Shown here one piece after another: positions 40,519-59,493 of a stretch of 64,000 bases of DNA. The DNA comes from an uncultured Candidatus Saccharibacteria bacterium (GTDB taxonomy: Bacteria; Patescibacteriota; Saccharimonadia; Saccharimonadales; Saccharimonadaceae): the NCBI GenBank assembly GCA_947166405.1, contig CAMVEA010000002.1, forward strand, positions 164-64,163, given 5' to 3'. The notes under the pieces are model-generated. The model did not search any database, was not told the origin of the DNA, and saw only the letters and a program-made list of their open reading frames with translations. Position numbers and translations under genes: made by a program. Each line of letters opens with the position of its first letter. The first letter of the stretch is position 1.

Positions 40519-41235
40519 TTATTTCTTACCATCGTCCAAGATTAACTGTGGGTTAGTTGTCGTCAAGAGCGCTAGCTCACGTTCATTATAATACCGCGAA
40601 GCCTTCTTTAAACCCTCAGTCAACGAATTACGAGGCCCAGCCCGATGCGTATCACTTGCGAGCAGATAAATCATTTTTTTCTTTGCCATCTTTTTCACCA
40701 AATGCTCCGCTCCAGGCCCATATTTCCCGATAAAACTTCGAATATTAGACTGAAATAAAACCCCCATATCATAAAGGACAAGCAATGCATCATAATCTTC
40801 CTGAAATAAAGCATATCTTTCCGGATGCGCTAACACTACTTTATAACCCTTATCAATCAATTCACGGAAATACCACTCGCAACGCATAGTCTCTTCGTTC
40901 AGAGAAAGTTCTATCAACAAATACCGACTACCCGCCAAAGACGTCAACTCACCAGCCTTAATCAATTCTTCAATATTTTCAGTATAAAATATCTCATTTC
41001 CCAAGTACAAATTAACATCAATGCCTTCAGCATCTAACCTGTTCTTAAGCTCCTCTAATAATTTATAATTAGCATTTATCGGCGAATTATAATCAGTCTC
41101 GTAAATATAATGTGGCGTAGCTACGATATCAGTCATTCCTTGCCGGACCAACCACTTGATTGCATCAATACTCTCATTAATATTCTCTGCTCCATCATCC
41201 ACGCCCGGCAGAAAATGTGAATGTAAATCTATCAT
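40519..41235 (-). CDS. CpsB/Wzh-type PHP-family protein-tyrosine phosphatase
   Basis: MIDLHSHFLPGVDDGA, ATPH, LAHPERY, ASDTH. Confidence 0.93.
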   Translation of the reverse strand: MIDLHSHFLPGVDDGAENINESIDAIKWLVRQGMTDIVATPHYIYETDYNSPINANYKLLEELKNRLDAEGIDVNLYLGNEIFYTENIEELIKAGELTSLAGSRYLLIELSLNEETMRCEWYFRELIDKGYKVVLAHPERYALFQEDYDALLVLYDMGVLFQSNIRSFIGKYGPGAEHLVKKMAKKKMIYLLASDTHRAGPRNSLTEGLKKASRYYNERELALLTTTNPQLILDDGKK

Positions 41236-42605
41236 TCTTTACTGGAATACCCGTAATAGTAATAACTGTTATAATATTTCGTCGCTTTGCGGTCCACCAT
41301 ATTAAAGACTATACCCGCAACATTTGCGCCCACCTTATCAAGAGACTCCTTCACACTCATCAAATCCGCTTTTGAGGTTTTTCCATCCTTCACGACAATC
41401 AATGTCTCATCCATATAGCTCGAAAGAATCACCGAGTCCGCCAAGCCGCCCACAGGAGCACCATCAAATATGATGACATCATAACGTCGCTTTAATTTCT
41501 CAATCACTTGCTTGTTCTTCTTCGAAGCCAAAAGCTCACTCGGATTCGGCGGATAAGTACCGCAAGTTATCACGTCCAAATTCTTAATTCTGGTTGGCTG
41601 AATATAACTATCAAAATCCTTCAAATCACTCGTCAGCAAGTTCGATAAGCCCCTCGTGTTTGGCAATCTAAACAACCTGTGCAACCGCCCTTTCCTCAAA
41701 TCACAGTCTACCAGCAATACCTTCTTATCCGCCTGCGCAAAAGAAGTTGCAAGGTTCGACGACACAAAGCTCTTCCCCTCACTCGCATTCGTACTCGTAA
41801 TCAGAATAGTCTTAATCTCCTTATCGACCGAGGTAAATTGCAAATTCGTACGCAAGCTCTTGATATTCTCGCTCACTATCGCCTTCGGTGATTTCTCGAC
41901 AATCAATTCGCTGTCATCATTCCGTCGCCTTCCAGCATCACCCCTCAGTATTAATCCAGTAACCGGCAAGCCAATCGTCTTCTCGGCGTCATCGCCATGT
42001 TTTACCGTATCATCCAAGTAGAATCTCAGGAAAGCAAAGCCCGCCACCGCCAAAATCGCAATCATCGCCGCTAGCACCACATCACGCGTCAAAGATTTAT
42101 TAGCCGGAGCTTCCGGCACCGAAGCCACACTTAGTTGCTTGACATTTTCGATGTTATAAAGCGACACTACCTCAGAAGAAAACACTTTTGCAATCTCATT
42201 AGCAATCGCCGTCGCACGACGCGCATCGGGATTCTTGACCTTGATGCTCAAAATAGAAGTATCCTCAATCGGCTGAATCGTCAAATCACGACTGAGAGCT
42301 TTAGCATCAGTACGAAGCCCCAGATTATTAATCACTTGGTTTAGCACCAACTCACTTTTTGCAATCTCGCCATAAGTCGACACTAGCTTCTGACTCATAT
42401 TTACGTCAGTATAAGCCGCCGTACCACCTTCATTCGCAGCATCCGCCTTCGCTACCACCACTGTCGTTTGCGCTTGATAGATCGGAGTTTTAAACATTAA
42501 ATTATAAACTACCACTCCGCCAACCGCCAGAACAATCAATACAATAAAAGCAATAATGTATTTTTTAAGATAAATAAAAAAGTCTTTAATATTTATTTCT
42601 TCCAT
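41232..42605 (-). CDS. Fused CpsC-CpsD (Wzz chain-length regulator + BY-kinase)
   Basis: Two-TM Wzz part, then LRTNLQF, STNASEGKS Walker A, VDCDLRK, DGAP and C-terminal Tyr cluster YYNSYYYYGY. Confidence 0.93.
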   Translation of the reverse strand: MEEINIKDFFIYLKKYIIAFIVLIVLAVGGVVVYNLMFKTPIYQAQTTVVVAKADAANEGGTAAYTDVNMSQKLVSTYGEIAKSELVLNQVINNLGLRTDAKALSRDLTIQPIEDTSILSIKVKNPDARRATAIANEIAKVFSSEVVSLYNIENVKQLSVASVPEAPANKSLTRDVVLAAMIAILAVAGFAFLRFYLDDTVKHGDDAEKTIGLPVTGLILRGDAGRRRNDDSELIVEKSPKAIVSENIKSLRTNLQFTSVDKEIKTILITSTNASEGKSFVSSNLATSFAQADKKVLLVDCDLRKGRLHRLFRLPNTRGLSNLLTSDLKDFDSYIQPTRIKNLDVITCGTYPPNPSELLASKKNKQVIEKLKRRYDVIIFDGAPVGGLADSVILSSYMDETLIVVKDGKTSKADLMSVKESLDKVGANVAGIVFNMVDRKATKYYNSYYYYGYSSKE

Positions 42606-42689: not shown

Positions 42690-44939
42690 CTATTCCGCCC
42701 TCATAGTTGTAGTTAAATCTGCATTAGGATTAGTTGAAGTCGTATTGTTAACTGTTCCAGAAGCATTCGAATCCTCATCAACCGATTCATCATTCAGTGT
42801 ATCAACCATGCTAGGACTGCCCCCATCAACCTCGTCAACATTACCCTCACCGGTCGGGTCCAAATCAGTTTCGCCATCGCTTTCCTTCTTTATTGATTCT
42901 TTATTAGTTGTAGGGGATGTACCAAGATATTCATAAATCTTATTCCTCGCATTCTTCACCGTTTCTTCCGACGGAATCATCACATACAATAATCTATTGG
43001 CACCCATACTATAAGTTGGCTCATAGGTACCAGTCCCATCAACCGCAATTGATTCGACCTGCCACTTGATATTATTCAAAAGCTGCATTCTTACGAAAGA
43101 CGAAACATTATCACGCGAGAAGGTAGTTTCAAACGAATCACCCGCAATGTCGAGTATGGTTGGAATTCTTAGCAAATAATCCCGCGAGCTACCCAAGCGC
43201 CCAATGATACTGGTAATCACTTGTTGTTGGTTTTCACCACGATGACGATCACCGGTTTCGTATGATTTACGCTCACGTGCGAACCGAAGCGCACAGTTCC
43301 CATCAACGTGCTGTATACCTTCTGTGAAATGGCACCTCGCCCCATTTTCACCCGTCAGATTCATCTCTCTATCCGACTCAATATCAATACCGTCCAGCTG
43401 GTCCACTGTCTTAATCACCGTCTCGAAGCTCACCTTAATCGTATAATCAATCTCAATACCAAGGAAATCTTCAATCGTATTCTTACTCATATCAATGCCG
43501 TACACACCAGCATGAGTCAGCTTATCCTTGAGCCCAGTTGTATTATGTAGCTGCACATAAGTATCACGGGGGATGGATACCAACAGGATCTTGCTTTCTT
43601 TCGGGTTCACTACCGCCACAATATTAACGTCCGAACGTGCCGTAGTCTTAACGCCAGTTCGCGAATCACTCCCCGAAATCAACACCGTAAATGGCTCAGC
43701 GGTAATCTCCTTGTCTACCACATCAACGATTTTATCATCTGATTCTATTTCAAAAGTATAAATCACACGGATTCTCTTTGCGAACTCATCCTCATTCTCA
43801 TTAAACATTTCCAAACGATCACTCTCAAGCACCATCGCATTTGCGATATCGCTAGCTAATGCATCCATCATGATATCAATATTATCGTAATAATCTGCAT
43901 CAAAGCTCACCTGAGTCTGCAAATGTTGCTCTGCCTTAGTAGCCATAGAATCAGTCTTGATAAATCCAACATGCTTATCCTTGATCTGGTTAAGATTCTG
44001 AATCACGCCCTCTTCCATCACAGCTACACTGTACTGCCTTCTCTCCGGATGGTACCCAGTCACTTTATTCAAAAACCCATTATAAGCAAACATGTAACGC
44101 AAAGCAAATCCTATTACCACCACCAACAATACTCCCACTACCGACAAGATGAGTTTCTTCTTTAAATTACCATTAGAGGCTCTTCTGGTATTTCTACGAT
44201 TTTTCTTAGGATGCTCGATGTCAACTATCCTTTCCAATTTAGTATTAGGCATTTCAATCTTCGAATTGGCCTTCTTTGATTCAATAGCACCTACATTTCC
44301 ATCCTTCTCATCCTTTTTCTTGGCAACATTCAGCTTAACACCACTTGCCTCACCACCCGACTTCACATCAATTGCTTCAGCAACGCTTACCTTGTTTTTT
44401 GACGGCTTAATAGTTCGCGGCTTAGACTTAGTAGATTCGGCAGATTTGGCAGATTTGGCAGATTTAGTGGATTTAACAGCATTAGCGACTTTAGACTCTT
44501 TCTCAGCCACCTCAGCAACTACTGGCTCCGCCACCTTAGTAGCATCAGATTTAGTATCAACAGTACCAGCAATTTTCGACTTCACATCAATTGCTTCAGC
44601 AGCTATTGGCTCTGCCGCCTTAGAAGCATCCAATTTAGCATCAACAGTACCAGCAATTTTCGACTTCACATCAATCACCTCAGTGATCTCGGGCTCAATA
44701 TCAGTTACCTTAACGGTCTTAGACTTAGTACGGCTCAGCTTAGTCGCTTGCGATTCTTCTACCTTCGGCTTGCCAGAGTTTAATCTGCTTGCTTGCATTA
44801 AACGACTCGACCTACGTACTCTTCTCGTATTCTTTAGTCCACTTACCTGCATCGAACGCCCTTGTTTTCGTGCTTTTTTCGACACCTTCAATTTATCCGG
44901 CTGCCCCGAGTCAGGATCATTGCTTACTTTAATATCCAT
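42690..44939 (-). CDS. LCP (LytR-CpsA-Psr) family protein with ~260-aa disordered cytoplasmic N-terminus
   Basis: LISGSDSR, RSDVNI, LVSIPRDTYV, KLTHAG, ALRFARER...GDRHRGENQQ. Confidence 0.92.
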   Translation of the reverse strand: MDIKVSNDPDSGQPDKLKVSKKARKQGRSMQVSGLKNTRRVRRSSRLMQASRLNSGKPKVEESQATKLSRTKSKTVKVTDIEPEITEVIDVKSKIAGTVDAKLDASKAAEPIAAEAIDVKSKIAGTVDTKSDATKVAEPVVAEVAEKESKVANAVKSTKSAKSAKSAESTKSKPRTIKPSKNKVSVAEAIDVKSGGEASGVKLNVAKKKDEKDGNVGAIESKKANSKIEMPNTKLERIVDIEHPKKNRRNTRRASNGNLKKKLILSVVGVLLVVVIGFALRYMFAYNGFLNKVTGYHPERRQYSVAVMEEGVIQNLNQIKDKHVGFIKTDSMATKAEQHLQTQVSFDADYYDNIDIMMDALASDIANAMVLESDRLEMFNENEDEFAKRIRVIYTFEIESDDKIVDVVDKEITAEPFTVLISGSDSRTGVKTTARSDVNIVAVVNPKESKILLVSIPRDTYVQLHNTTGLKDKLTHAGVYGIDMSKNTIEDFLGIEIDYTIKVSFETVIKTVDQLDGIDIESDREMNLTGENGARCHFTEGIQHVDGNCALRFARERKSYETGDRHRGENQQQVITSIIGRLGSSRDYLLRIPTILDIAGDSFETTFSRDNVSSFVRMQLLNNIKWQVESIAVDGTGTYEPTYSMGANRLLYVMIPSEETVKNARNKIYEYLGTSPTTNKESIKKESDGETDLDPTGEGNVDEVDGGSPSMVDTLNDESVDEDSNASGTVNNTTSTNPNADLTTTMRAE
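44358..44675. repeat. Internal coding repeats in the LCP N-terminus
   Basis: 36-bp identical block at 44556-44591 and 44640-44675 (84-bp period); 25-bp block at 44358-44382 and 44577-44601; 9-bp GATTTGGCA tandem near 44440-44465. Confidence 0.85.
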
Positions 44940-45243: not shown

Positions 45244-46428
45244 TTAATCTCTCGCAAACAAATCCCTTGTGTAAACAATATCTGATACGTCACGTATTTC
45301 ATCTTCCAATCGATTCGCAATTATTATGTCACTCCGTTTTACAAAACTATCATAGTCATTTTCTATCTCAAAGCCATTAAACTTCTTCTCAGTAATAGTT
45401 GGTTCATAAATAATCACCTTCACCCCTTCACCACGCAAATGTTTAATCACATCCTGAATAGCAGATGAACGGAAATTATCCGACCCACTCTTCATTGTCA
45501 GGCGAAACACCCCCACAGTTTCTGGCTGACGCTTTAGTATATCTTTTGCAATAAATTCTTTGCGAATCTTATTAGCTTGCACAATAGCTCTAATCAAATC
45601 CTGCGGCACACCACGATAATTCGCCAAAAGCTGCTTCGTGTCCTTAGGTAAGCAGTACCCACCGTATCCAAAAGAAGGATTGTTGTAATGCGTACCAATC
45701 CTCGGATCAAGACAAACACCATCAATAATCGCCTTAGCATTCAAGCCTTTAACCTGCGCATAAGTATCCAACTCGTTAAAATAAGAGACCCTCAAAGCCA
45801 AATAAGTATTGGCAAATAGTTTAATCGCCTCAGCTTCAGTTGGCGGCACAAATAATACAGGCACATCTTCCTTAAGTGCGGAATCTTTCAATAATTCAGC
45901 AAATTCCTTGGCCTTATCAGAATCATCTCCTATTACAATACGTGAAGGATATAAATTATCATAAAGCGCTTTCCCCTCCCGCAAAAACTCCGGTGAAAAG
46001 AAAATATTATCGATCTTATATTCTTCGCGAATACGCTCAACATAACCAACCGGCACAGTAGATTTAATCACCATAGTAATATTATCGTCTTTCATACGTA
46101 TTACTTTTTTGATGATATCTTCCACAGCCGACGTATCAAATGCATTCGTCTCATCATCATAATTAGTGGGCGTTGCAATTATTACAAATTTTGCATCCTT
46201 CATCGCATCCTTATAATCAGTAGTACTACGAATATTGAGTTTGCGCTCACCATTCTTTGTTTCATTAAAGTATTTCTCGATATATTCATCGCGTATTGGC
46301 GATACTAAATTATTAATCATGTCCGCCTTGGCTTGGTCTTTTTCTAAAACTACCACCTTATGATTTTGTGAAATCAAGGTCGCCAAAGACAAACCAACAT
46401 AACCACCCCCTGCAACTGTTATTTTCAT
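45244..46428 (-). CDS. ugd: UDP-glucose 6-dehydrogenase
   Basis: AGGGYVG, SPEFLREG, EAIKLFANTYLALRV, GYGGYCLPKD. Confidence 0.95.
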   Translation of the reverse strand: MKITVAGGGYVGLSLATLISQNHKVVVLEKDQAKADMINNLVSPIRDEYIEKYFNETKNGERKLNIRSTTDYKDAMKDAKFVIIATPTNYDDETNAFDTSAVEDIIKKVIRMKDDNITMVIKSTVPVGYVERIREEYKIDNIFFSPEFLREGKALYDNLYPSRIVIGDDSDKAKEFAELLKDSALKEDVPVLFVPPTEAEAIKLFANTYLALRVSYFNELDTYAQVKGLNAKAIIDGVCLDPRIGTHYNNPSFGYGGYCLPKDTKQLLANYRGVPQDLIRAIVQANKIRKEFIAKDILKRQPETVGVFRLTMKSGSDNFRSSAIQDVIKHLRGEGVKVIIYEPTITEKKFNGFEIENDYDSFVKRSDIIIANRLEDEIRDVSDIVYTRDLFARD

Positions 46429-46485: not shown

Positions 46486-47535
46486 TTATCCGTAGAACTC
46501 CTTATACCATTCCGCAAACTTTCTTAAGCCATCACGCAGTTTCGTATGCGGTCGAAATCCAAAATCCTTCTCCAATGCAGAAGTATCCGCATATGTTACA
46601 GGAACATCACCAGGCTGCATCGCCACCAATTCCTTATGTGCATCAAAGTCATAATCCTCTGGCAAGACCTTGGCACGAATCAACTCTTCTTGCAATATCT
46701 GCACGAAATCTAACAAGTTTTCTGGATTTGAATTCCCGATATTATATATAGCATAGGGCGCCAATGGTAACCCATCTTCACCATCACGCTTCTGAGGCGC
46801 CTTCGCCATTACTCTCATCACCCCCTCAACAATATCATCAATATAAGTAAAGTCACGTTTACAATTTCCATAATTGAAAATCTGAATCTTCTCGCCTTTT
46901 ATTAATTTATTCGTAAAACCAAAGTATGCCATATCTGGACGTCCCGCTGGACCATACACAGTGAAAAAACGAAGACCTGTCGATGGTATATTATATAATT
47001 TAGAATATGCATGTGCAAGTAGCTCATTTGATTTTTTGGTTGCAGCGTATAAACTTACTGGATTATCGACCTTATCATCCACCGCAAAAGGAACCTTTTT
47101 ATTCCCACCATAGACCGAGGATGACGACGCATAGACCAAATGTTCCGGAGTGTAATGTCGACAAGCTTCCAAAATATTATAAAAACCAATCAAATTCGCT
47201 TCAATATACACATCAGGATGTTCAATACTATATCTCACTCCAGCCTGCGCCGCAAGATTTACTACGATGTCTGGATGATATTCTTTAAACAAATTTTCCA
47301 CAACTTTTTTATCCGCAAGATTTCCCCTTACAAAAATAAAATTCTTAAATTTCGTCAGATTTTCTAACCGATATTCCTTTAACCTCACGTCATAATAATC
47401 GTTAACACTATCTAGCCCAATCACCTTCGCTTCTGGGTTTTCCTCACACACCTTCTTTACTAAAGCCGCACCAATAAATCCCGCCGCACCAGTAATTAGT
47501 ATTGTCTTATTATAATAATAAACCGTATAATCCAT
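46486..47535 (-). CDS. NAD-dependent epimerase (UDP-glucuronate 4-epimerase/CapI-like)
   Basis: TGAAGFIG, NLAAQAGVRYS, YASSSSVYG, YAATK, GLRFFTVYGP. Start MDYTV at 47535. Confidence 0.92.
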   Translation of the reverse strand: MDYTVYYYNKTILITGAAGFIGAALVKKVCEENPEAKVIGLDSVNDYYDVRLKEYRLENLTKFKNFIFVRGNLADKKVVENLFKEYHPDIVVNLAAQAGVRYSIEHPDVYIEANLIGFYNILEACRHYTPEHLVYASSSSVYGGNKKVPFAVDDKVDNPVSLYAATKKSNELLAHAYSKLYNIPSTGLRFFTVYGPAGRPDMAYFGFTNKLIKGEKIQIFNYGNCKRDFTYIDDIVEGVMRVMAKAPQKRDGEDGLPLAPYAIYNIGNSNPENLLDFVQILQEELIRAKVLPEDYDFDAHKELVAMQPGDVPVTYADTSALEKDFGFRPHTKLRDGLRKFAEWYKEFYG

Positions 47536-52691: not shown

Positions 52692-53828
52692 TTATAATTC
52701 TATACTGTCTAAATAAATATGTAAAAGTCTTCTTGAAGTCTGTCTAACATCATATTCATTTGCAGAGTCAAAAAAATGAATATCATTTCTTGTTTTCTTT
52801 GTTCTTTCTTCAAGAATCCTTTCTTTCCATTTAGCAATTGATAATTCTTCAAACATAATAGCATCTGAAATCATTGCTTCTTTTGGAATATTTGAAGACG
52901 CTAGACAAGGAAGTCCAGAAAACTGCGCTTCCACTAAAACCATCCCCAAGCCTTCGTATAAAGATGGCAGTATAAAGCAATCAAATGCACTATAGTATTT
53001 GAATATTTCGTTTGTTTCTGGAATTAAGATTATCATATCGTCAAGGCCTTCTTCTTTTACCTTCCTTTCGAATTCTGATTTCAAGCTTCCGCCCCCACAT
53101 AACATAAAAACGACATCATTATCCTTCATGCTTCTTATTAACTCAAGAATAAAACGATGATTTTTGGGTATTTCGAAACGACCAACATGTCCAACTAAAA
53201 AAGTATCATTCCCAACTAAGTATTTTTTTCGAATCCTATTTCTATATAATTGATTAAATCTATACTTTTCAATCTCTATCGCATTATTTATTATCATACA
53301 TTTTTTTGAATTAGCGATTTCAGGTCCATATAACCACTCTGCTGCTTCCATAGAACACGCAAAGTAATAATCACAATAATATTTAATACGACTTTGCAAC
53401 AACTTTTTCACAATCGCTTTCAACCCTTTTCCATTAGAAATACTATGACTATGACAAATCGTAACTAATCCGTTTTCCTTCGCAATCTTTAACACAATCG
53501 ACGCCACACTCCGTACATGAGAATGAATAATTTTATACTCAGGATGTTCTTCGAAAAAGACTCTCCACTGCCTAATGAAGCTATTGTAATTATGTCCTTT
53601 AAAAAACTCATCAAAAACATACACCCTTCCGCCCAATGACTCTATCTCTTCTTTATAAAACATATTATCTTTTCTATCAACAATAAAATCAAATTGCACT
53701 ATATTTCTATCTATATTCCTATAGATGTTCATTATCATAGACTGCGAACCACCAGCTTCTAAACAGCCAATGTATTGCAACACTCTAACAGGGCCATTAT
53801 TCTCTTTTTTCTTTATTGTTTTATTCAT
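52692..53828 (-). CDS. GT4 glycosyltransferase (EpsF-like)
   Basis: RVLQYIG.LEAGG, HVGRF..PKNH, PSLYEGLGMVLVEAQ. Confidence 0.9.
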   Translation of the reverse strand: MNKTIKKKENNGPVRVLQYIGCLEAGGSQSMIMNIYRNIDRNIVQFDFIVDRKDNMFYKEEIESLGGRVYVFDEFFKGHNYNSFIRQWRVFFEEHPEYKIIHSHVRSVASIVLKIAKENGLVTICHSHSISNGKGLKAIVKKLLQSRIKYYCDYYFACSMEAAEWLYGPEIANSKKCMIINNAIEIEKYRFNQLYRNRIRKKYLVGNDTFLVGHVGRFEIPKNHRFILELIRSMKDNDVVFMLCGGGSLKSEFERKVKEEGLDDMIILIPETNEIFKYYSAFDCFILPSLYEGLGMVLVEAQFSGLPCLASSNIPKEAMISDAIMFEELSIAKWKERILEERTKKTRNDIHFFDSANEYDVRQTSRRLLHIYLDSIEL

Positions 53829-54922
53829 TTTTCTCTCGTTATTTCTTGCAAATATGAATTAATTACAATGTTTCTATCAAACTCTTTTTCTATTCTTTTC
53901 CTTGCCCTTAAACCCATCTGTTCTTTTTCTTTATTGCTTAATTTAATAAACTTTTCTACCTTCTTTATTAACGATTCGATATCTCTACTTTTTATTATAT
54001 ACCCATTTACACCATCCTCAACAATTTCTTTACATCCAGGTCGATCCGTAGTGATAATTGGTCTTCCCGAAGCACAACTTTCAAGCAAAACATTACTCAT
54101 TCCCTCTGGATAAAAAGAAGGATGGATAGTACAATTGTTCATCTTATGAAACTCCCTTACGTCTTTTACGCAACCATGATATATAATAATGCCATCCTTA
54201 TTAAGTTTATTTAGTTTCTTTAAATATTCTTCGTCATCACAAGCACCAAGTATATGAAATTCAGTATTCTTATAATTTGCTTTTATGTAATTTGCCAATT
54301 CTAAATACTCATCTATTCCTTTTTCATGCATTATTCTTGAAATAAAAAAGAATCTGATAACACCATCTTTCGGGTATTTTAACAATACGTGATGCTTTAA
54401 ATTAACCCCTGAGCCAGGTATAAGCCTATATCGACCTTTAACGACCCCGCGATTCAACATAAAATTTAAGTTGTTCGCATTTTGAAAGAAAACACATTTA
54501 GCTCTTCTTATCCCCTTCTTATATAAAAACAGAGTTACAGCCTGCAATAATCCAGGTTGCTCTACAGACGTACCTAAACCAGTTACGTTAGAGATATATG
54601 GAATATTAAGCTTACTACAAACATACCCTCCATACACATTCGGTTTAATTGTATAAGTTAATACCATATCTGGCTGTATCTTTTTTACTATTTTTCTAAA
54701 ATCTATCATCATTCTCAAATCTTTTATCGGATTCGTGCCACGACTATCAATCTTTATCGAGACAAAAATACACTTTAATTCTTTTAGTTCATCCAAGTAT
54801 CGACAATCTGTTGGTGCTACAACAAAAATTTTATAGTTTTCCTTAAGCAAAGATTCGAGAAGCTCTTTTCTAAAGCTAATCAAACCCATTAATGAATTAC
54901 AAAATACTACTATCTTTTTCAT
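53825..54922 (-). CDS. GT4 glycosyltransferase (PglA/WbnH-like)
   Basis: YTIKPNVYG, NVTGLG, IPGSGV, EKGIDE, PEGMSNVLLE. Confidence 0.9.
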   Translation of the reverse strand: MKKIVVFCNSLMGLISFRKELLESLLKENYKIFVVAPTDCRYLDELKELKCIFVSIKIDSRGTNPIKDLRMMIDFRKIVKKIQPDMVLTYTIKPNVYGGYVCSKLNIPYISNVTGLGTSVEQPGLLQAVTLFLYKKGIRRAKCVFFQNANNLNFMLNRGVVKGRYRLIPGSGVNLKHHVLLKYPKDGVIRFFFISRIMHEKGIDEYLELANYIKANYKNTEFHILGACDDEEYLKKLNKLNKDGIIIYHGCVKDVREFHKMNNCTIHPSFYPEGMSNVLLESCASGRPIITTDRPGCKEIVEDGVNGYIIKSRDIESLIKKVEKFIKLSNKEKEQMGLRARKRIEKEFDRNIVINSYLQEITREK

Positions 54923-54925
54923 TAC

Positions 54926-55543
54926 TTACCTCTCCAATTTTTTTGCCGGAATTCCGATATATACACCAGGATCATCAATTCTTTTTAGTACTATCGCACC
55001 AGCCCCAATAACAACATCATCTTCTATAGTAACATTATTGACTACAGAAACCCCAACGCAAATCCAAGAATAATCACCGACTGCAACTGTCCCAGCCAAA
55101 TGCGCACCCGGTGAAATATGCACAAAATCGCCAATCCTGCAATCATGATCTACAGTTACGCCAGTATTAATAATACAATGCTCACCTATCACCGTATCAA
55201 CGTTTATCACTGTACCAGCCATCACTACACTACCAACACCAATTTTAACCGTATCGGCAATCGTAGCCCTCGGATGAATTGCCGTGTAATATTTAACATT
55301 TAAGCTACCTGCAATCTTCGCACGCATATGGTTAACACCAATAGCTACCACAAAATAACAATCTTTATACTTCTCTGCATCAGAAACCTTACCCAAGACT
55401 TTATATTCTTTAAAAACCAAGCTACCCTGCTTATCATCGTCATCATCCAGAAATCCCACTAACTCATCGCCAGCACAAAACACAATATCAGCAATCACCT
55501 TTGCATGACCACCAGCTCCAATGATTATAACTTTTTTTGCCAT
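54926..55543 (-). CDS. Sugar N/O-acetyltransferase (PglD/EpsM/NeuD-like, hexapeptide repeat)
   Basis: IIGAGGHAKV, VDHDC, HISPGA. Start MAKK at 55543. Confidence 0.9.
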   Translation of the reverse strand: MAKKVIIIGAGGHAKVIADIVFCAGDELVGFLDDDDDKQGSLVFKEYKVLGKVSDAEKYKDCYFVVAIGVNHMRAKIAGSLNVKYYTAIHPRATIADTVKIGVGSVVMAGTVINVDTVIGEHCIINTGVTVDHDCRIGDFVHISPGAHLAGTVAVGDYSWICVGVSVVNNVTIEDDVVIGAGAIVLKRIDDPGVYIGIPAKKLER

Positions 55544-55544
55544 T

Positions 55545-56186
55545 CTAATGTGCCCTCTCCTCAATTAAATTTGTCATAGTTTGGCTCTTGCCATCTGAAA
55601 TACCAGAACGTCTTACAACCTGCAAAAGCGTAGAAAACACAATCTTAAGATCTTGGAAAAAGGTTACATGATTAACATATATCGCATCAATTTCAAAACG
55701 TTTTTTCCATCCAACTAAATTGCGTCCACTCACTTGCGCTAATCCAGTCAATCCTGGCCTCACATCATGGCGACAACGCTCAGCTTTAGTATAATAAGGT
55801 AAATATTCCACCAAAAGCGGTCTCGGCCCCACAAAACTCATATCGCCTTTCAGAATATTAACCAGTTCTGGTAATTCATCAAGTGAAGAAGCCCTAAGCA
55901 CTCTACCAAAACGCGTCAAGCGCTTCTCGTCTGGCAACAATCTACCCTTCTTATCCCTAGCATCTGTCATCGTTCGAAATTTATACAACCTAAAAATCCT
56001 CTCGTCCTTACCAGGTCGTTCTTGCTTAAAGATAACTGGGCTACCCAATTTAACTCGCACTAAAATCGCCACTACCAACAATATCGGAGAAAGAAGTACC
56101 AAGGCGAATAGCGCAAAAACCACGTCCAAAACACGCTTAAAGAATTTTTCGTATAGCCCATATGGTTTGTGATTATTCTTACTCAT
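55545..56186 (-). CDS. Priming phosphoglycosyltransferase (PglC/EpsL-like)
   Basis: KRVLD, FKQERPG, KFRTM, SLDELPEL..ILKGDMSFVGPRP, RPGLTGLAQV. Confidence 0.93.
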   Translation of the reverse strand: MSKNNHKPYGLYEKFFKRVLDVVFALFALVLLSPILLVVAILVRVKLGSPVIFKQERPGKDERIFRLYKFRTMTDARDKKGRLLPDEKRLTRFGRVLRASSLDELPELVNILKGDMSFVGPRPLLVEYLPYYTKAERCRHDVRPGLTGLAQVSGRNLVGWKKRFEIDAIYVNHVTFFQDLKIVFSTLLQVVRRSGISDGKSQTMTNLIEERAH

Positions 56187-56187
56187 C

Positions 56188-57459
56188 TTATTTAAAACAC
56201 TCATGTATTAATTTAATTATAACATCTTGCTCTTCTGCTGTCATTTTATTATCCGACGGCAAGCATAAACCTCTCGCGAAAATATCCATCCCCACATCCG
56301 TACATTTAGTAGCAATATAAGCATTACTCTTCGCACGACTAGAACCCCCGCATGTAATAAAATCATTGTTACGAAATATCGGCTGCATGTGCATCGGTTT
56401 CCAAATCGGACGTCCTTCGGCATTGTATTTAGCCAAGGTATCCAATATTTCAGTCGGACAACTTTTGCCGGATTCGCTAATATATAACACATCCTGTTCC
56501 CCACGCACCTGTTTACACATCGCATCTTTGTCAATAATCATACAAGAAAGCCAATAATTCGGTTCAGAATTATCAACATCGTAAGGATTCATCTTTACCG
56601 GTAAATCATTCAAACCTTCCTTATATCTTTCATATATTGCCTTCTTCTGTTCAATATGTTCTTCTAAGTGAGGGATTTGTCCACGCACGACACCAGCAAT
56701 CACATTACTCATTCGATAGTTATAGCCCACCTCTTCATGCTGATACCAAGGAGCATTCTCACGTGCCTGCGTAGACCATTTACGAGCCTTATTAGCGCCC
56801 TCCAAATCATCGGTCAAGAGCATCCCACCAGCGGAACCAGTAATAATCTTATTGCCATTAAACGAAATGCAATTATAGTCACCAAACATACCAGTCTGTC
56901 GCCCCTTATAGCTTGCACCTAACGATTCAGCTGCATCCTCCACAATCAAAGCATTATGCCTCTTAGCAATCCCTCTAATCTCATCAATCTTAGCCGGCGT
57001 GCCATACAAATGCGCCACCACAACCAAACGCACATCAGGATAAATCTCGAAAGCCTTTTCTAGAGCCTCCGGATCCATATTCCAAGTATCGTATTCCGTA
57101 TCGATAAACACTAGCTCACCACCTTCATATGTAATAGGATTAGCAGTAGCAGCAAAAGTTACATCACTACAAAACACCCTATGTCCTTCAAGACTCCCAT
57201 GACCAGCTCGCGGTTTACCATAAAGCTTTTCGCCAGCCATCCTAACGGCTAGGTGTAATGCTGCAGTACCAGAGCTCAATGCCACTGTATTTTTAATACC
57301 AATCTTTTTAGCAATCTGCTCTTCCACCTTGTCAATGTTTTCGCCAACAGTAGACATCCAATTAGTCTCATAAGCGCTTGTCACATACTTTATCTCTTCA
57401 CCGTGCATAGTCGGACTAGCCAACCATATCTTTTTTTCAAATGGTTTTATTCTATTCAT
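56188..57459 (-). CDS. DegT-family sugar aminotransferase (PglE/EpsN-like)
   Basis: SSGTAALH, VEDAAES, SFNGNKIIT, GYNYRMSN. Confidence 0.93.
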   Translation of the reverse strand: MNRIKPFEKKIWLASPTMHGEEIKYVTSAYETNWMSTVGENIDKVEEQIAKKIGIKNTVALSSGTAALHLAVRMAGEKLYGKPRAGHGSLEGHRVFCSDVTFAATANPITYEGGELVFIDTEYDTWNMDPEALEKAFEIYPDVRLVVVAHLYGTPAKIDEIRGIAKRHNALIVEDAAESLGASYKGRQTGMFGDYNCISFNGNKIITGSAGGMLLTDDLEGANKARKWSTQARENAPWYQHEEVGYNYRMSNVIAGVVRGQIPHLEEHIEQKKAIYERYKEGLNDLPVKMNPYDVDNSEPNYWLSCMIIDKDAMCKQVRGEQDVLYISESGKSCPTEILDTLAKYNAEGRPIWKPMHMQPIFRNNDFITCGGSSRAKSNAYIATKCTDVGMDIFARGLCLPSDNKMTAEEQDVIIKLIHECFK

Positions 57460-59324
57460 TTTGCTCCTTTCCCCACCTTATACGTCCCCACAATCTTCGC
57501 CGTCAGTGGTTTAATCTCATCCGAATTATGTTTCGCCTCAGCAATCAAAGCGTCCAAATCATCCAAAAAGCTATCACTAATCTTAATCGGCCTACCAATA
57601 TGTATTAGTTTATTCGGCGTTTCCTTCAGTCCCTCCTCATCCATCAGCATTTCTTCATATAGTTTTTCTCCAGGCCTCAACCCAGTTATCTTAATCTTAA
57701 TATCCTTTCCAGGCTCAAGTCCTTTATATCTAATAATCTTCTTTGCGAGTTCGTAGATTTTCACCGGCTTCCCCATATCTAGCACAAATATCTCTCCGCC
57801 CTGCGCATAAACCGAAGCTTGCAAAATCAAACTCACCGCCTCTGGGATAGTCATAAAATACCTTGTAATGTCCTTATGCGTAACGGTCACTGGCCCACCA
57901 TTTTCTATCTGTTTAATAAACAACGGAATCACCGAGCCATTCGACCCAAGCACATTACCAAACCTCACCGCAACATATTGCGTCTCGGATATTTTGTCAT
58001 AAGTTTGAATTATCATTTCGCAAATCCGCTTTGACGCACCCATAATGTTTGTCGGACGTACAGCCTTATCAGTACTCACTAGCACAAACTTACTAACTTT
58101 ATACTTATCAGCGAGCTTCACAACATTAAGAGTACCCAAGCAATTATTCTTAATGGCTTCGTTCGGAGACACTTCCATCAATGGGACATGTTTATGTGCC
58201 GCAGCATGATATACTTGCTCAGGACGAAATTTCAAAAAAACCTTTTCGAGTCGCGGATAATCCCGCACCGAACCAATAATCGTCTCCAACCTCAAATCAG
58301 GAAAACTTCGATACAATTCCTGTTGGATATCATAAGCATTATTCTCATAAATATCAAAAATGATAAGCAACTTCGGTCTAGCTTTAGCTATCTGACGGCA
58401 AAGCTCCGACCCGATACTCCCACCACCACCAGTCACTAGGATAGTCTTATCTGTCAAATTGCTCGTTATTTCAATATCATTTACCACAATCTCATCTCTG
58501 CCCAAGAAATCCTGATATCTGATCGGACGAATCTGAGCAATCGTACTCGTAGCATCTTGATTCATTCTCAAGTATATAGACGGGAGAATCTTAATCTCAG
58601 CCTTAGTCTTCTGACACTCAGTAACTATCTTCTCTATTGTCTCTTTAGTTGCAGATGGAATAGCGATGATTATTTCTTTTACTTGATATTTATCTGCCGC
58701 ATTACTAATCATATGACGACCACCGACCACCTTTATCCCACGAATCCTCGAGCCAGCCTTAGACTTATTGTCATCTATAATGCAAACCACGCGCGATGAA
58801 CTATAATCCTTATTACGGTTCATTTCATCAATCAACATCCTTGCAGCTTCACCACCACCAATAATCATTATATTGTTGACAGCATTACGCCCAGCGACCA
58901 TTTTGAAAAAAGTACGACCAATCCGATACGAATAACGCACCCCACAAGTCAAAAAGATCAGCAAAGCCGGAAAAACAAACCAAAAGCTACGCGGGCTAGG
59001 CAATAGCATTAAATGCTTATATACGTACATCAGACAATCTGTAGCAATGCATGCTAGCACAATCGAAATCAATTCCGGAATAGAAGCATATCGCCAAATC
59101 GAAGTATACAACCCAGCCATCACAAATATCAAAATCATAATTGCACAATCTATCGGTAAGTAATCTGTCACCGTGCTTAAATAATTGGCCGGAATGTCAT
59201 GAAAATCAAACCTCATCCAAAGAGTTAAATATGAGGACAAGATAAAAGACAGAATATCAAGAAACACCAGAACAACTATTCTGGAAATCTTCCTTCCGGT
59301 TATGCCTCGCATTTTGTTTTTCAT
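57456..59324 (-). CDS. Membrane-bound UDP-GlcNAc 4,6-dehydratase (CapD/PglF/EpsC-like)
   Basis: 4 N-terminal TMs, TGGGGSIGSELCRQ, HAAAHKHVP, STDKAV, VRFGNVLGS, GLRPGEKL. Start MKNKM at 59324. Confidence 0.94.
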   Translation of the reverse strand: MKNKMRGITGRKISRIVVLVFLDILSFILSSYLTLWMRFDFHDIPANYLSTVTDYLPIDCAIMILIFVMAGLYTSIWRYASIPELISIVLACIATDCLMYVYKHLMLLPSPRSFWFVFPALLIFLTCGVRYSYRIGRTFFKMVAGRNAVNNIMIIGGGEAARMLIDEMNRNKDYSSSRVVCIIDDNKSKAGSRIRGIKVVGGRHMISNAADKYQVKEIIIAIPSATKETIEKIVTECQKTKAEIKILPSIYLRMNQDATSTIAQIRPIRYQDFLGRDEIVVNDIEITSNLTDKTILVTGGGGSIGSELCRQIAKARPKLLIIFDIYENNAYDIQQELYRSFPDLRLETIIGSVRDYPRLEKVFLKFRPEQVYHAAAHKHVPLMEVSPNEAIKNNCLGTLNVVKLADKYKVSKFVLVSTDKAVRPTNIMGASKRICEMIIQTYDKISETQYVAVRFGNVLGSNGSVIPLFIKQIENGGPVTVTHKDITRYFMTIPEAVSLILQASVYAQGGEIFVLDMGKPVKIYELAKKIIRYKGLEPGKDIKIKITGLRPGEKLYEEMLMDEEGLKETPNKLIHIGRPIKISDSFLDDLDALIAEAKHNSDEIKPLTAKIVGTYKVGKGAK

Positions 59325-59486: not shown

Positions 59487-59493
59487 AAGCCAA

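What the first reader, a model, noticed from the sequence alone, without database searches (positions are those of the whole stretch)
40519..59324. Complete Gram-positive-type capsule/EPS locus inserted inside the spc ribosomal operon of a CPR bacterium
Seen: rpsH (59494) and rplF (40434), adjacent in the canonical spc operon, are separated by 15 genes: capD/pglF-, pglE-, pglC- and pglD-like genes, three GTs, wzy, a GT-like gene, wzx, epimerase, ugd, LCP, fused cpsCD and cpsB. rplF has acquired its own TTTACT-17-TATAAT promoter. Established: these families build and anchor Wzy-dependent capsules in Firmicutes. Inference: an obligate epibiont makes a full LCP-anchored capsule, possibly host-derived or for host mimicry or phage evasion, and keeps it at an unusual, undeletable-flank site.
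Basis: partly seen in the sequence, partly recalled or inferred. Interest (0 to 1): 0.7.

Follow-up and report, generated by a model that had tools for sequence, protein, structure and literature searches.

The report
Capsule gene island splitting a ribosomal operon
A tiny gut Saccharibacteria (CPR) bacterium of ruminants carries a complete 19-kb gene set for a wall-anchored surface polysaccharide between two ribosomal protein genes that are neighbours in almost all bacteria. In its relatives the same gap holds other surface-structure genes, so it is a clade-wide variable surface island rather than a one-off insertion or an assembly error.

Summary
On the minus strand, rpsH (59494-59895) and rplF (39898-40434) are separated by 15 co-oriented genes. 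Together they form a complete Gram-positive-type Wzx/Wzy-dependent polysaccharide locus.

It is not a chimera. Independent assemblies from other samples and species reproduce both junctions, and one contig (L113) shows S8-cps-L6 in full.

It is not a recent or host-derived acquisition. The closest homologues of LCP, CapD and Wzy are all in Saccharibacteria, and they diverge about as much as non-ribosomal housekeeping genes.

The site is special only in one shallow ruminant-gut clade. There rpsH ends with a terminator and rplF has its own conserved promoter, which is present even in a relative with no insert. In relatives the gap holds capsule loci, giant VWA/Cna_B adhesins, TasA/SipW-like fibre genes, or nothing. 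Other Saccharibacteria, and 47 of 49 other bacteria checked, keep S8 and L6 adjacent.

The predicted product is a repeat unit primed with diNAcBac (or a related sugar), with up to five sugars and probably a uronic acid, attached to peptidoglycan by LCP.

The components are ordinary. The setting is unusual and I found no report of it. Interest is moderate.

The parts
59494..59895 (-). rpsH (ribosomal protein S8). It is the last gene of the upstream S10/spc transcription unit.
   Evidence: Pfam Ribosomal_S8, 133 bits. It is 74-86% identical to the S8 of related Saccharibacteria.
59325..59493 (-). rpsH-capD spacer. It holds two hairpins, at 59486-59461 and at 59442-59406, the second running into a U-run (terminator-like). 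A weak candidate -10 (TACAAT) lies at 59344-59339 ahead of the capD start.
   Evidence: The RNA fold gives -47.4 kcal/mol, z = -4.3 against shuffles. The homologous spacers in L001-L004, L111 and L113 contain canonical G+C-rich terminators directly after rpsH.
57456..59324 (-). capD/pglF-like membrane-anchored UDP-GlcNAc 4,6-dehydratase.
   Evidence: Pfam Polysacc_synt_2, 404 bits. The best solved relative is C. jejuni PglF (5BJU), 294 bits. Saccharibacteria homologues are 70-78% identical.
56188..57459 (-). pglE-like DegT-family sugar aminotransferase.
   Evidence: Pfam DegT_DnrJ_EryC1, 251 bits. NCBIfam LegC family scores 302 bits, below its cut-off of 420.
55545..56204 (-). pglC-like small monotopic phosphoglycosyl transferase (the initiating enzyme).
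   Evidence: Pfam Bac_transf, 209 bits. It scores 252 bits against PglC, the diNAcBac-1-P transferase (8E37), and 117 bits against WbaP.
54926..55543 (-). pglD-like N-acetyltransferase. The probable start is the Met of MAKKVIIIG.
   Evidence: Pfam PglD_N plus Hexapep. NCBIfam TIGR03570 NeuD/PglB/VioB scores 216 bits, above its cut-off of 161.
53825..54922 (-). GT4 glycosyltransferase (G+C 0.31).
   Evidence: Pfam Glycos_transf_1, 109 bits, plus Glyco_trans_4_2.
52692..53828 (-). GT4 glycosyltransferase (G+C 0.32).
   Evidence: Pfam Glycos_transf_1, 80 bits.
51662..52633 (-). GT2 glycosyltransferase (G+C 0.29).
   Evidence: Pfam Glycos_transf_2, 94 bits.
50253..51599 (-). wzy, the repeat-unit polymerase.
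   Evidence: NCBIfam TIGR04370, 146 bits against a cut-off of 40. The closest homologues are Saccharibacteria proteins at 49-77% identity, one of them named 'oligosaccharide repeat unit polymerase'.
49271..50176 (-).
   Evidence: NCBIfam NF053598, 182 bits against a cut-off of 60. Homologues lie beside wzx/wzy in L113 and L114.
47811..49274 (-). wzx flippase.
   Evidence: Pfam Polysacc_synt, 38.8 bits against a cut-off of 28.2. The 64-66% identical homologues in L113 and L114 carry Polysacc_synt and Polysacc_synt_3.
46486..47535 (-). NAD-dependent sugar-nucleotide epimerase, probably UDP-glucuronate 4-epimerase.
   Evidence: Pfam Epimerase, 188 bits. PDB 5U4Q scores 371 bits and the B. cereus UDP-GlcA 4-epimerase 6ZL6 scores 141 bits. 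The gene is next to ugd in most related loci examined. The specific activity is inferred.
45244..46428 (-). ugd, UDP-glucose 6-dehydrogenase.
   Evidence: Three UDPG_MGDP_dh domains. NCBIfam TIGR03026 scores 334 bits against a cut-off of 190.
42690..44939 (-). LCP (CpsA-like) polymer-to-peptidoglycan ligase. It has an unusual repetitive Lys/Ser/Ala-rich N-terminal extension of about 260 aa.
   Evidence: Pfam LytR_cpsA_psr, 122 bits. The Cps2A model is matched over positions 70-474 of 477. More than 100 LCP homologues at 55-70% identity were found, and all those that carry an organism name are Saccharibacteria. They are 417-603 aa long. An 84-nt tandem repeat lies at 44512-44675.
41232..42605 (-). 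Fused CpsC/CpsD: a Wzz-type chain-length modulator joined to a BY tyrosine autokinase with a C-terminal Tyr cluster.
   Evidence: Pfam Wzz plus AAA_31/ParA. NCBIfam TIGR01007 scores 198 bits against a cut-off of 108. The sequence shows Walker A (NASEGKS), Walker A' (VLLVDCDLRK), Walker B (VIIFDGAP) and the tail YYNSYYYYGY.
40519..41235 (-). cpsB, PHP-family phosphotyrosine phosphatase.
   Evidence: Pfam CpsB_CapC, 190 bits, covering positions 1-233 of 234.
40464..40492 (-). Internal promoter of the rplF-rplR-rpsE-rplO unit: TTTACT, 17 nt, TG-n-TATAAT.
   Evidence: A promoter in the same position is conserved upstream of rplF in L001-L006 and L084. It is absent from L008-L010, where the S8-L6 spacer is about 20 nt.
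39898..40434 (-). rplF (L6), the first gene of the downstream ribosomal unit (L6-L18-S5-L15, then an FKBP isomerase).
   Evidence: Pfam Ribosomal_L6. It is 94-96% identical to the L6 of Saccharibacteria MAGs from gut samples, one of them from goat duodenum.

Best explanation
The region is a functional, chromosomally native Wzx/Wzy-dependent locus for a surface heteropolysaccharide (a capsule or a wall polysaccharide) in a ruminant-gut Saccharibacteria bacterium.

Inferred pathway:
1. PglF-, PglE- and PglD-like enzymes convert UDP-GlcNAc into UDP-diNAcBac or a close relative.
2. A PglC-type transferase puts that sugar on undecaprenyl phosphate.
3. Up to four glycosyltransferases (two GT4, one GT2, one WaaS/CpsH) extend the repeat unit. 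Ugd and the adjacent epimerase supply UDP-GlcA and probably UDP-GalA.
4. Wzx flips the unit across the membrane and Wzy polymerises it.
5. The fused CpsC/D tyrosine kinase and the CpsB phosphatase regulate assembly.
6. The CpsA-like LCP enzyme attaches the polymer to peptidoglycan.

Genomic setting. In one shallow gut clade the spc operon is split after rpsH into two transcription units: a terminator follows rpsH, and rplF has its own conserved promoter. The intergenic gap so created serves as a variable island for cell-surface genes. Probably the island was once an adhesin plus a capsule locus, and lineages have since lost or replaced parts of it. The window keeps only the capsule locus. Its low-G+C central cassette (wzx to GT4) is the serotype-like variable part.

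Shown: gene content, family membership, the junctions, recurrence in other genomes, and the conserved promoter and terminator sequences.

Inferred: the identity of the sugars, actual polymer production, promoter and terminator activity, the ancestral state of the island, and the biological role (masking from phages, from host defences or from the animal).
For: Gene content and families.

The junctions are reproduced independently:
- A Logan contig of 7145 bp covers 55051-59889, from pglD through capD into rpsH. Contigs of 589-1157 bp span cpsB into rplF. These come from runs of several studies.
- Other assemblies carry ...LCP-cpsCD-cpsB-L6-L18-S5-L15-FKBP: L084/L085, L086, L088, L102 and L110.
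- L111 shows ...S14-S8-adhesin-capD-DegT-PGT....
- L113 shows S8-cps-L6 on one contig.

The locus is native to the clade:
- The nearest homologues of LCP, CapD and Wzy are in Saccharibacteria.
- The cps proteins are 48-85% identical between species. Neighbouring housekeeping genes are in the same range (ExoI 65-78%, FKBP 57-65%).
- There is no tRNA, no integrase and no flanking direct repeat.

The operon is split:
- There are hairpins after rpsH and terminators in the relatives.
- The rplF promoter is conserved even without cargo.
- Only 2 terminator-like sites occur in the 20 kb, against 10.5 expected.

The island is variable:
- L001 carries a VWA/FctA/Cna_B adhesin.
- L003 carries Big_2, an S26 signal peptidase and camelysin/TasA-like proteins.
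- L006 is empty.
- Loci with and without cps are interleaved on a ribosomal-protein tree.
- A promoter found only at this site is shared by L001, L111 and L113.

The site is rarely broken elsewhere: S8 and L6 lie within 250 nt in 47 of 49 non-Saccharibacteria genomes and in 19 of 28 assessable Saccharibacteria.

A low-G+C central cassette is a general feature of these loci.
Against: - There is no direct evidence of expression or of a polysaccharide layer. The only 'RNA' run is ambiguous, has low depth and may contain DNA.
- The promoter and terminator calls are sequence matches. Promoter-like hexamers are common in this A+T-rich DNA (102 found, 74 expected). The window's post-rpsH hairpins are A+T-rich and were missed by the simple terminator scan.
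- The PglE-like, CpsB, Cps2A and Ugd equivalog models score below their NCBIfam cut-offs, so exact substrates are uncertain.
- Some Saccharibacteria carry the cps locus at other sites: L081 next to ExoI, L114 after RNase Y, and L087 and L107 elsewhere. The ancestral position is therefore not settled.
- The tree uses only three short proteins.
- A deeper origin from Firmicutes cannot be excluded. The unidentified relative L112 has CapD 67%, PglE 74% and Ugd 62% identical.
Confidence: 0.8

Rival explanations
1. Assembly or binning chimera: a Firmicutes capsule contig was wrongly joined to Saccharibacteria ribosomal genes.
For: The central 7 kb has much lower G+C (0.30) than the flanks. Assembly graphs break at the conserved 5' end of rplF (loose ends at 40436-40450).
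Against: The same junctions occur in independent assemblies from several studies and at least six other species-level lineages, including the single contig L113. GC skew is continuous across the locus. The cps genes adjoining the junctions have host-like G+C of 0.39-0.43. The closest homologues are in Saccharibacteria.
Confidence: 0.02
2. The whole locus was recently transferred horizontally into this genome from a Firmicutes or Actinobacteria neighbour or host.
For: The system is of Gram-positive type. The central cassette has low G+C. An unidentified relative with a Firmicutes-like context (L112) has CapD 67%, PglE 74% and Ugd 62% identical, close to the values between Saccharibacteria. Two ugd allele classes exist, 62-65% identical to each other and as far apart as the outgroup, which shows exchange within loci.
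Against: Every top hit that carries an organism name for LCP, CapD and Wzy is from Saccharibacteria. The best named non-Saccharibacteria Wzy is 28% identical. The locus boundaries, gene order of the 3' module and flanking regulatory sequences are shared by lineages whose ribosomal genes differ by about 20% at the DNA level. Low-G+C central regions occur in all related loci. No mobility genes are present.
Confidence: 0.08
3. The locus does not make a capsule. Instead it builds short glycans for protein glycosylation, for example of the giant adhesin or pilin encoded beside it in relatives, in the manner of the Campylobacter or Neisseria pgl systems.
For: Four pgl-like genes are present (PglF, PglE, PglD and PglC types). 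Relatives have a VWA/Cna_B adhesin gene adjacent to the locus.
Against: A Wzy polymerase, a Wzz/BY-kinase, a CpsB phosphatase and an LCP ligase are present and conserved. No oligosaccharyltransferase-type domain (PglB/STT3, PglL or O-antigen ligase) was seen among the 15 genes. The window has no adjacent adhesin gene.
Confidence: 0.05
4. The island lies between rpsH and rplF by chance, as a neutral rearrangement scar in a clade whose ribosomal super-operon is fragmenting. It has no functional link to surface variation.
For: The same clade also lacks SecY after L15, where an FKBP gene follows instead. The operon is broken outright at S8|L6 in L005, L013 and L014, where housekeeping genes lie upstream. 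Some cps loci sit elsewhere.
Against: Every cargo in the core clade whose family could be identified is a surface or secreted structure, and almost all cargo genes are co-oriented with the ribosomal genes. The boundaries carry conserved terminator and promoter elements.
Confidence: 0.15

Closest known systems
Streptococcus pneumoniae-type cps loci (cpsA-D plus a serotype-specific region); Wzx/Wzy-dependent Gram-positive capsule and EPS loci
   Same: Both have an LCP (CpsA-like) ligase, a PHP phosphatase (CpsB), a Wzz-like modulator with a BY-kinase (CpsC/D), an initiating phosphoglycosyl transferase, glycosyltransferases, Wzy and Wzx. Both have a low-G+C variable central region between conserved genes, and a fixed chromosomal site flanked by conserved genes.
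   Different: Here the regulatory genes lie at the 3' end, in the order LCP-CD-B. CpsC and CpsD are fused into one protein. The initiating enzyme is a small PglC-type transferase rather than a large CpsE/WchA type. The host is a CPR bacterium with a reduced genome. The flanks are ribosomal protein genes, not dexB/aliA.
Campylobacter jejuni pgl pathway enzymes PglF, PglE, PglD and PglC (UDP-diNAcBac synthesis and transfer)
   Same: The best solved relatives of CapD and the transferase are PglF (5BJU, 294 bits) and PglC (8E37, 252 bits). A NeuD/PglB/VioB-family acetyltransferase and a DegT aminotransferase are adjacent to them.
   Different: There is no PglB oligosaccharyltransferase. The glycan is polymerised (Wzy) and probably attached to the wall (LCP), not transferred to protein. 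The identity of the sugar is untested.
Canonical bacterial spc ribosomal operon (L14-L24-L5-S14-S8-L6-L18-S5-L30-L15-SecY)
   Same: The gene order is canonical on each side of the gap: L14-L24-L5-S14-S8 and L6-L18-S5-L15.
   Different: S8 and L6 are 19 kb apart. A terminator-like structure follows rpsH and a promoter precedes rplF. L30 is absent, as in CPR generally (PMC9297842). L15 is followed by an FKBP isomerase rather than SecY. No L29 gene lies between L16 and S17.
O-antigen and K-antigen loci at fixed sites between conserved genes (for example galF-gnd in Enterobacteriaceae)
   Same: Both are a fixed chromosomal slot between conserved housekeeping genes. Both hold alternative polysaccharide cassettes with low-G+C wzx, wzy and glycosyltransferase genes and mosaic sugar-precursor genes.
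   Different: Here the slot also holds non-polysaccharide surface cargo in relatives (adhesin, TasA-like fibres). Exchange between strains is inferred, not shown.

Membership tests
Wzx/Wzy-dependent Gram-positive capsule/EPS locus | Initiating polyprenyl-phosphate phosphoglycosyl transferase | tested here: met
   Pfam Bac_transf, 209 bits against a cut-off of 27. PDB PglC 8E37 scores 252 bits.
Wzx/Wzy-dependent Gram-positive capsule/EPS locus | Wzy repeat-unit polymerase | tested here: met
   NCBIfam TIGR04370, 146 bits against a cut-off of 40, covering positions 1-395 of 396.
Wzx/Wzy-dependent Gram-positive capsule/EPS locus | Wzx flippase (MOP/Polysacc_synt family) | tested here: met
   Pfam PF01943, 38.8 bits against a cut-off of 28.2. 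This is only a partial match, to profile positions 92-265. There is no NCBIfam hit. Homologues in L113 and L114 also carry PF13440.
Wzx/Wzy-dependent Gram-positive capsule/EPS locus | CpsC/CpsD: a Wzz-type modulator plus a BY-kinase with Walker A/A'/B motifs and a C-terminal Tyr cluster | tested here: met
   Pfam Wzz, 41.6 bits. TIGR01007 scores 198 bits against a cut-off of 108. The motifs and the YYNSYYYYGY tail can be read in the sequence. The two parts are fused into one 457-aa protein.
Wzx/Wzy-dependent Gram-positive capsule/EPS locus | CpsB PHP-type phosphotyrosine phosphatase | tested here: met
   Pfam PF19567, 190 bits, full length. The Cps4B equivalog scores only 110 bits against a cut-off of 400.
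Wzx/Wzy-dependent Gram-positive capsule/EPS locus | LCP (CpsA) ligase for attachment to peptidoglycan | tested here: met
   Pfam PF03816, 122 bits. TIGR00350 scores 99 bits against a cut-off of 62. The Cps2A model is matched over 70-474 of 477 but scores 243 bits, below its cut-off of 650.
Wzx/Wzy-dependent Gram-positive capsule/EPS locus | A polysaccharide layer is actually produced and is wall-linked | not testable with these tools
   This needs microscopy and glycan chemistry on a culture or enrichment.
UDP-diNAcBac (pgl-type) precursor pathway | UDP-GlcNAc 4,6-dehydratase of the PglF type | tested here: met
   PDB 5BJU (C. jejuni PglF/WlaL) scores 294 bits over residues 266-587.
UDP-diNAcBac (pgl-type) precursor pathway | C4 aminotransferase (PglE) | tested here: inconclusive
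   It belongs to the DegT family (251 bits). The best NCBIfam model is the LegC family at 302 bits, below its cut-off of 420. Stereochemistry cannot be read from sequence.
UDP-diNAcBac (pgl-type) precursor pathway | N-acetyltransferase (PglD) | tested here: met
   TIGR03570 scores 216 bits against a cut-off of 161. Pfam PglD_N scores 70 bits.
Mobile genomic island | An integrase, recombinase or transposase; a tRNA or other att site; flanking direct repeats | tested here: not met
   There is no tRNA in the window. No such domain occurs in the 15 genes. Only short repeats of 22 nt or less, at chance level, lie at the borders.
Canonical spc operon | rpsH immediately followed by rplF in one transcription unit | tested here: not met
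   The gap is 19 kb. Hairpins follow rpsH and a promoter precedes rplF. By contrast the gap is 250 nt or less in 47 of 49 other bacteria.
Saccharibacteria (CPR/Patescibacteria) | Ribosomal proteins closest to Saccharibacteria, and the CPR hallmark absence of uL30 between S5 and L15 | tested here: met
   L6 is 94-96% identical to Saccharibacteria MAGs. S5 (38685-39566) abuts L15 (38221-38685). The uL30 hallmark is described in PMC9297842.

The most novel reading that the evidence does not exclude
The rpsH|rplF gap of ruminant-gut Saccharibacteria may be a dedicated 'surface-antigen slot'. Alternative surface modules would be exchanged there between co-resident strains by homologous recombination. 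The modules are capsule serotype cassettes, isopeptide-domain adhesins and TasA-like fibres. The conserved ribosomal genes on each side, together with the fixed terminator and promoter, would act as recombination arms and as an expression frame. This would let a reduced-genome epibiont vary its surface quickly against phages, bacterial hosts or the animal.

Evidence consistent with this reading:
- Cargo types are interleaved on the ribosomal-protein tree.
- Several alternative sequences abut the same rplF 5' end within single samples, and a related strain shares capD-pglD but diverges inside pglD.
- ugd alleles are mosaic.

Evidence against: ribosomal genes of the sampled species are only about 75-85% identical at the DNA level. 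Exchange could therefore work only within species, and that was not tested.
Probability: 0.25. Interest if true: 0.7.

Novelty: new member of a known kind. Interest (0 to 1): 0.5.

Why it matters
Saccharibacteria are ultra-small epibionts with genomes of about 1 Mb, and how they present their surface to bacterial hosts, phages and animals is largely unknown. This genome devotes about 19 kb to a complete, regulated, wall-anchored polysaccharide system. Relatives keep that system, or other surface structures, in the same slot between two of the most conserved genes in bacteria. Surface variation therefore looks like a major selective theme in the gut members of this group. The finding gives concrete targets for study: capsule typing in metagenomes, knock-outs by natural transformation, and tests of phage and host range. 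It is also a rare natural case in which the spc ribosomal operon is split into two transcription units that tolerate large inserts. In seven literature searches I found no report of either point.

Tried and rejected
- An exact-protein look-up of the window's CpsB in public assemblies found nothing, so this exact strain is not on record under that product.
- Rfam and tRNA scans of the window were empty. There is no tRNA integration site and no riboswitch or leader RNA.
- A search for flanking direct repeats found only short matches at chance level. One 18-nt perfect inverted match links the rplF promoter spacer (40474-40491) and the ugd coding sequence (46101-46118). No -10 element follows the second copy, so I treated it as coincidence.
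- The promoter conserved after rpsH in L001, L111 and L113 is absent from the window.
- Run X1 carries the central cassette at about 99.5% identity while its listed flank contigs are 92-97% identical. I considered this as evidence of cassette transfer and rejected it. The depths differ (about 6 against 14-19), so two co-resident strains explain it equally well.
- The only 'RNA' run (X17) is labelled GENOMIC RNA-Seq and covers cpsB and rplF at similar low depth. I did not use it as evidence of expression.
- I could not name the organism of L112, the nearest possibly non-Saccharibacteria relative.
- DNA identity of the genes flanking the island shows no local elevation between species. There is therefore no sign of recent inter-species recombination at the flanks.
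- Eight literature searches and four paper look-ups found no description of capsule loci in Saccharibacteria or of this synteny break.

Full report
**Observation.** The window's minus strand carries a long run of ribosomal protein genes (S19, L22, S3, L16, S17, L14, L24, L5, S14, S8) that ends with rpsH at 59494-59895. It resumes with rplF at 39898-40434, followed by L18, S5 and L15.
- CapD/PglF-like dehydratase
- DegT aminotransferase
- Bac_transf phosphoglycosyl transferase
- PglD-like acetyltransferase
- Two GT4 and one GT2 glycosyltransferase
- A 448-aa membrane protein that NCBIfam identifies as a repeat-unit polymerase (TIGR04370, 146 bits against a cut-off of 40)
- A 301-aa protein identified as a WaaS/CpsH glycosyltransferase (182 bits against a cut-off of 60)
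- A Polysacc_synt flippase
- An SDR epimerase
- UDP-glucose dehydrogenase
- A 749-aa LCP protein
- A fused Wzz plus BY-kinase
- A CpsB PHP phosphatase

The kinase shows Walker A, A' and B motifs and a C-terminal tyrosine cluster. The TTTACT-17-TATAAT motif upstream of rplF, with TG before the -10, is present at 40492-40464.

**Organism.** The L6 protein is 94-96% identical to L6 of uncultured Saccharibacteria MAGs, one of them from goat duodenum. The sequencing runs that hold this DNA are sheep, goat and other gut metagenomes. S5 abuts L15 with no L30, the CPR hallmark described in PMC9297842. The rest of the window is ordinary chromosomal housekeeping: PheS/T, FtsE/X, LeuRS, MetRS, LDH and exonuclease I.

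**It is not an assembly artefact.**
- Logan contigs of independent runs from several studies reproduce the rpsH-capD junction. One 7145-bp contig covers 55051-59889.
- Contigs of 589-1157 bp reproduce the cpsB-rplF junction.
- Other assemblies of different species-level lineages have the same arrangement. L084/L085 (GCA_017510665.1), L086, L088, L102 (a 318-kb contig) and L110 all read ...LCP-cpsCD-cpsB-L6-L18-S5-L15-FKBP.
- L111 reads ...L5-S14-S8-adhesin-capD-DegT-PGT-...-wzy-wzx.
- L113 shows the whole thing on one contig: L4 through S14-S8, a cps locus, then L6-L18-S5-L15.

**It is not a recent or host-derived acquisition.**
- A search with the LCP protein returned more than 100 homologues at 55-70% identity, and all those that carry an organism name are Saccharibacteria.
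- The best CapD homologues, at 70-78%, include all the hits that carry an organism name, and those are Saccharibacteria.
- Wzy is normally the most idiosyncratic gene of such loci. Its closest relatives are 49-77% identical, and the one that carries an organism name is from Saccharibacteria. The nearest named non-Saccharibacteria hit is a Streptococcus polymerase at 28%.
- Between species, the conserved cps proteins are 48-85% identical. The neighbouring non-ribosomal housekeeping genes fall in the same range (ExoI 65-78%, FKBP 57-65%).
- The locus has no tRNA, integrase, transposase or bordering direct repeats.
- The low-G+C centre (0.30, against 0.41-0.46) is a shared property of all related loci. 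It is the usual signature of the serotype-specific part of polysaccharide loci. That last statement is established general knowledge, not tested here.
- A deeper link to Firmicutes-type loci remains possible. An unidentified relative, L112, has split Wzz and CpsD genes, and its CapD, PglE and Ugd are 67%, 74% and 62% identical.

**What is special about the site.** I compared the S8-L6 distance in the 80 loci retrieved with L6.
- In 47 of 49 non-Saccharibacteria genomes the two genes are within 250 nt.
- Among assessable Saccharibacteria, 19 are adjacent, 6 have inserts of 0.7-6.7 kb and 3 are broken apart.
- Most of the larger inserts (L001-L004) lie in the gut clade that contains the window, or in its sister branch. 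That clade has L6 at least 81% identical and shares downstream synteny L15-FKBP-ExoI-LDH. Two further inserts (L007, L021) and two of the broken loci (L013, L014) lie in more distant Saccharibacteria.
- In the gut clade the cargo differs from genome to genome. L001 has one 2098-aa VWA/DUF7601/FctA/Cna_B adhesin. L003 has a Big_2 protein, an S26 (SipW-like) signal peptidase and camelysin/TasA-like proteins. L002 has a 585-aa secreted protein. L004 has two small ORFs. L006 has nothing. The window and six other lineages have a cps locus, preceded by an adhesin of about 1700 aa in L084, L110 and L111.
- On a neighbour-joining tree of L6, L18 and L15, the loci with and without cps are interleaved. 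The tree is short and should be read cautiously.

**Regulatory frame.**
- In relatives, rpsH is followed directly by a canonical intrinsic terminator. In L001, L111 and L113 a nearly identical promoter then follows (ttgaca-n-gcgtgatataatggcggcaa). Among the 114 loci held, it occurs only at this site.
- In the window the 169-nt rpsH-capD spacer folds into two hairpins, the second running into a U-run (z = -4.3). This also shows that the 665-aa ORF is an over-extension and that capD starts at 59324.
- Upstream of rplF, a promoter in the same position, followed by a conserved leader (GGATATTAA...AAGGAAAA), is present in L001-L006 and L084. That includes L006, where S8 and L6 are only 63 nt apart. 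It is absent from more distant Saccharibacteria, whose spacer is about 20 nt.
- So the operon was split into two transcription units in the ancestor of this gut clade, independently of any particular cargo.
- Within the 20 kb only two terminator-like sites were found, against 10.5 expected. That is compatible with one long cps transcript that may read through into rplF. This is inference.

**Predicted chemistry (inferred from homology).**
- The soluble domain of CapD is closest to C. jejuni PglF (5BJU, 294 bits).
- The transferase is closest to PglC, the diNAcBac-1-phosphate transferase (8E37, 252 bits against 117 for WbaP).
- The acetyltransferase passes the NeuD/PglB/VioB cut-off.
- The aminotransferase is DegT/LegC-like but scores below cut-off.
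- This points to a repeat unit primed with diNAcBac or a related 2,4-diamino-2,4,6-trideoxyhexose.
- Four further glycosyltransferases allow a repeat of up to five sugars.
- Ugd and the adjacent epimerase suggest GlcA and/or GalA. The epimerase scores 371 bits to 5U4Q and 141 bits to the B. cereus UDP-GlcA 4-epimerase 6ZL6.
- Wzx, Wzy, CpsC/D, CpsB and a CpsA-like LCP then give the standard flip, polymerise, regulate and attach-to-peptidoglycan sequence of monoderm bacteria.
- Sequence cannot tell whether the product is a thick capsule or a thinner wall polysaccharide.
- Protein glycosylation is unlikely, because no oligosaccharyltransferase-type protein is present and the polymerase, kinase and LCP genes are conserved.

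**Variation.** A related strain (runs X4, X6, X7) shares capD-pglE-pglC and part of pglD at about 95% identity, then diverges inside pglD. Another contig joins a pglC-like sequence directly to ugd. Gene content of the central region differs in every related locus. ugd exists in two allele classes that are 62-65% identical to each other and as far apart as the outgroup. Some Saccharibacteria carry the locus elsewhere: L081 next to ExoI, L114 after RNase Y, and L087 and L107 at other sites. The locus is therefore old, mosaic and mobile on evolutionary time scales. Ribosomal flanks of the sampled species are only 75-85% identical in DNA, with no local elevation near the island. Any cassette exchange by homologous recombination would thus have to be within species, which I could not test.

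**Comparison with known systems and novelty.** In function this is a member of the Wzx/Wzy-dependent CpsABCD-type capsule/EPS loci of monoderm bacteria, with a pgl-type precursor module. All testable defining features are met (see the membership table). It differs from the pneumococcal archetype in four ways: gene order (regulatory genes at the 3' end), a fused CpsC/D, a small PglC-type initiating enzyme, and its chromosomal setting. Some of these genes already carry generic names in NCBI MAG annotations. I found no paper describing capsule loci in Saccharibacteria or a split of the spc operon at rpsH|rplF. I rate it a new member of a known kind in an unusual, recurrent genomic setting, with interest 0.5. 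The finding is real and gives a handle on the surface biology of CPR epibionts. The parts are conventional, however, and the more striking readings (host mimicry, host origin) are unsupported.

Noticed in passing
window 61909-61911; L111 and L113: No uL29 gene lies between rplP (L16, 61911-62330) and rpsQ (S17, 61481-61909); only 1 nt separates them. The same is true in L111 and L113. PMC9297842 reports lineage-specific uL29 loss in CPR but, in the passages I read, does not single out Saccharibacteria.
   Followed up: partly
window 37333-38685: L15 is followed by a membrane-anchored FKBP-type prolyl isomerase, then exonuclease I and LDH, not by SecY-Adk-Map. This is a second break of the spc/alpha super-operon, shared by L001-L003, L084, L086, L102 and L110.
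   Followed up: partly
window 38685-39566, 61481-61909, 60814-61113: Several ribosomal proteins carry long low-complexity tails. S5 is 293 aa with a Lys/Ala/Glu-rich C-terminus. S17 is 142 aa with an acidic C-terminus, against 112-123 aa in relatives. L24 has a Lys-rich tail.
   Followed up: no
window 44150-44939 (LCP N-terminus); tandem repeats 44424-44474 and 44512-44675: The LCP protein is 749 aa, against 417-603 aa in its more than 100 listed homologues. The difference is a repetitive Lys/Ser/Ala-rich cytoplasmic N-terminal extension of about 260 aa, encoded partly by 84-nt and 9/18-nt tandem repeats. Its function is unknown.
   Followed up: partly
window 40474-40491 and 46101-46118: An 18-nt perfect reverse-complement match links the rplF promoter (-35 plus spacer) with the ugd coding sequence. 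No -10 element follows the second copy, so this is probably coincidence.
   Followed up: yes
L113 5589-5640: Downstream of the conserved post-rpsH promoter, L113 has a run of 15 G and then a second promoter-like element before the first glycosyltransferase. This could be the scar of a deleted adhesin gene, a phase-variable tract or an assembly artefact.
   Followed up: no
L081 2645-7519; L111 21125-21863; L114 14652-17364: Defence- or conflict-type genes are embedded in or beside related cps loci. L081 has a KAP NTPase and two CdiA_C toxin-domain proteins. L111 has a RelB/ParE pair. L114 has a DNA methylase and a HATPase/Ymh protein.
   Followed up: no
L003 6557-9848: At the same rpsH|rplF slot, L003 carries what looks like a TasA/SipW-type fibre operon: an S26 signal peptidase plus proteins with the camelysin/TasA N-terminal signal (...AYFTDS...). 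I am not aware of this having been described in CPR bacteria.
   Followed up: partly
L005, L013, L014 (upstream of rplF): In these Saccharibacteria the operon is fully broken at S8|L6. In L005 rpsB-tsf lie upstream of rplF, and in L013 and L014 unrelated housekeeping genes do. rplF is again preceded by its own promoter-like sequence.
   Followed up: partly
window 45244-46428 compared with L084, L086, L110, L113, L081: ugd falls into two allele classes. The window and L086 are 81% identical to each other, and the other four are 81-87% identical to each other. Between classes identity is only 62-65%, no closer than the outgroup L112. This is evidence of allelic replacement inside the conserved part of the locus.
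   Followed up: partly
window 25089-28397 and 16113-17993: Two large ORFs (1102 aa and 626 aa) have no Pfam match. Weak homologues of the 626-aa protein (25-28% identical) lie within a few kilobases downstream of cps loci in L087 and L102.
   Followed up: no
L089-L101, L105 (mostly human gut metagenome contigs): A second group of loci has a fused CpsC/D that is 48-49% identical, with the same MEEINI(K/R)D N-terminus, and most of them have CpsB next to it. Their LCP, where found, is only 28-33% identical. The organism was not identified.
   Followed up: no
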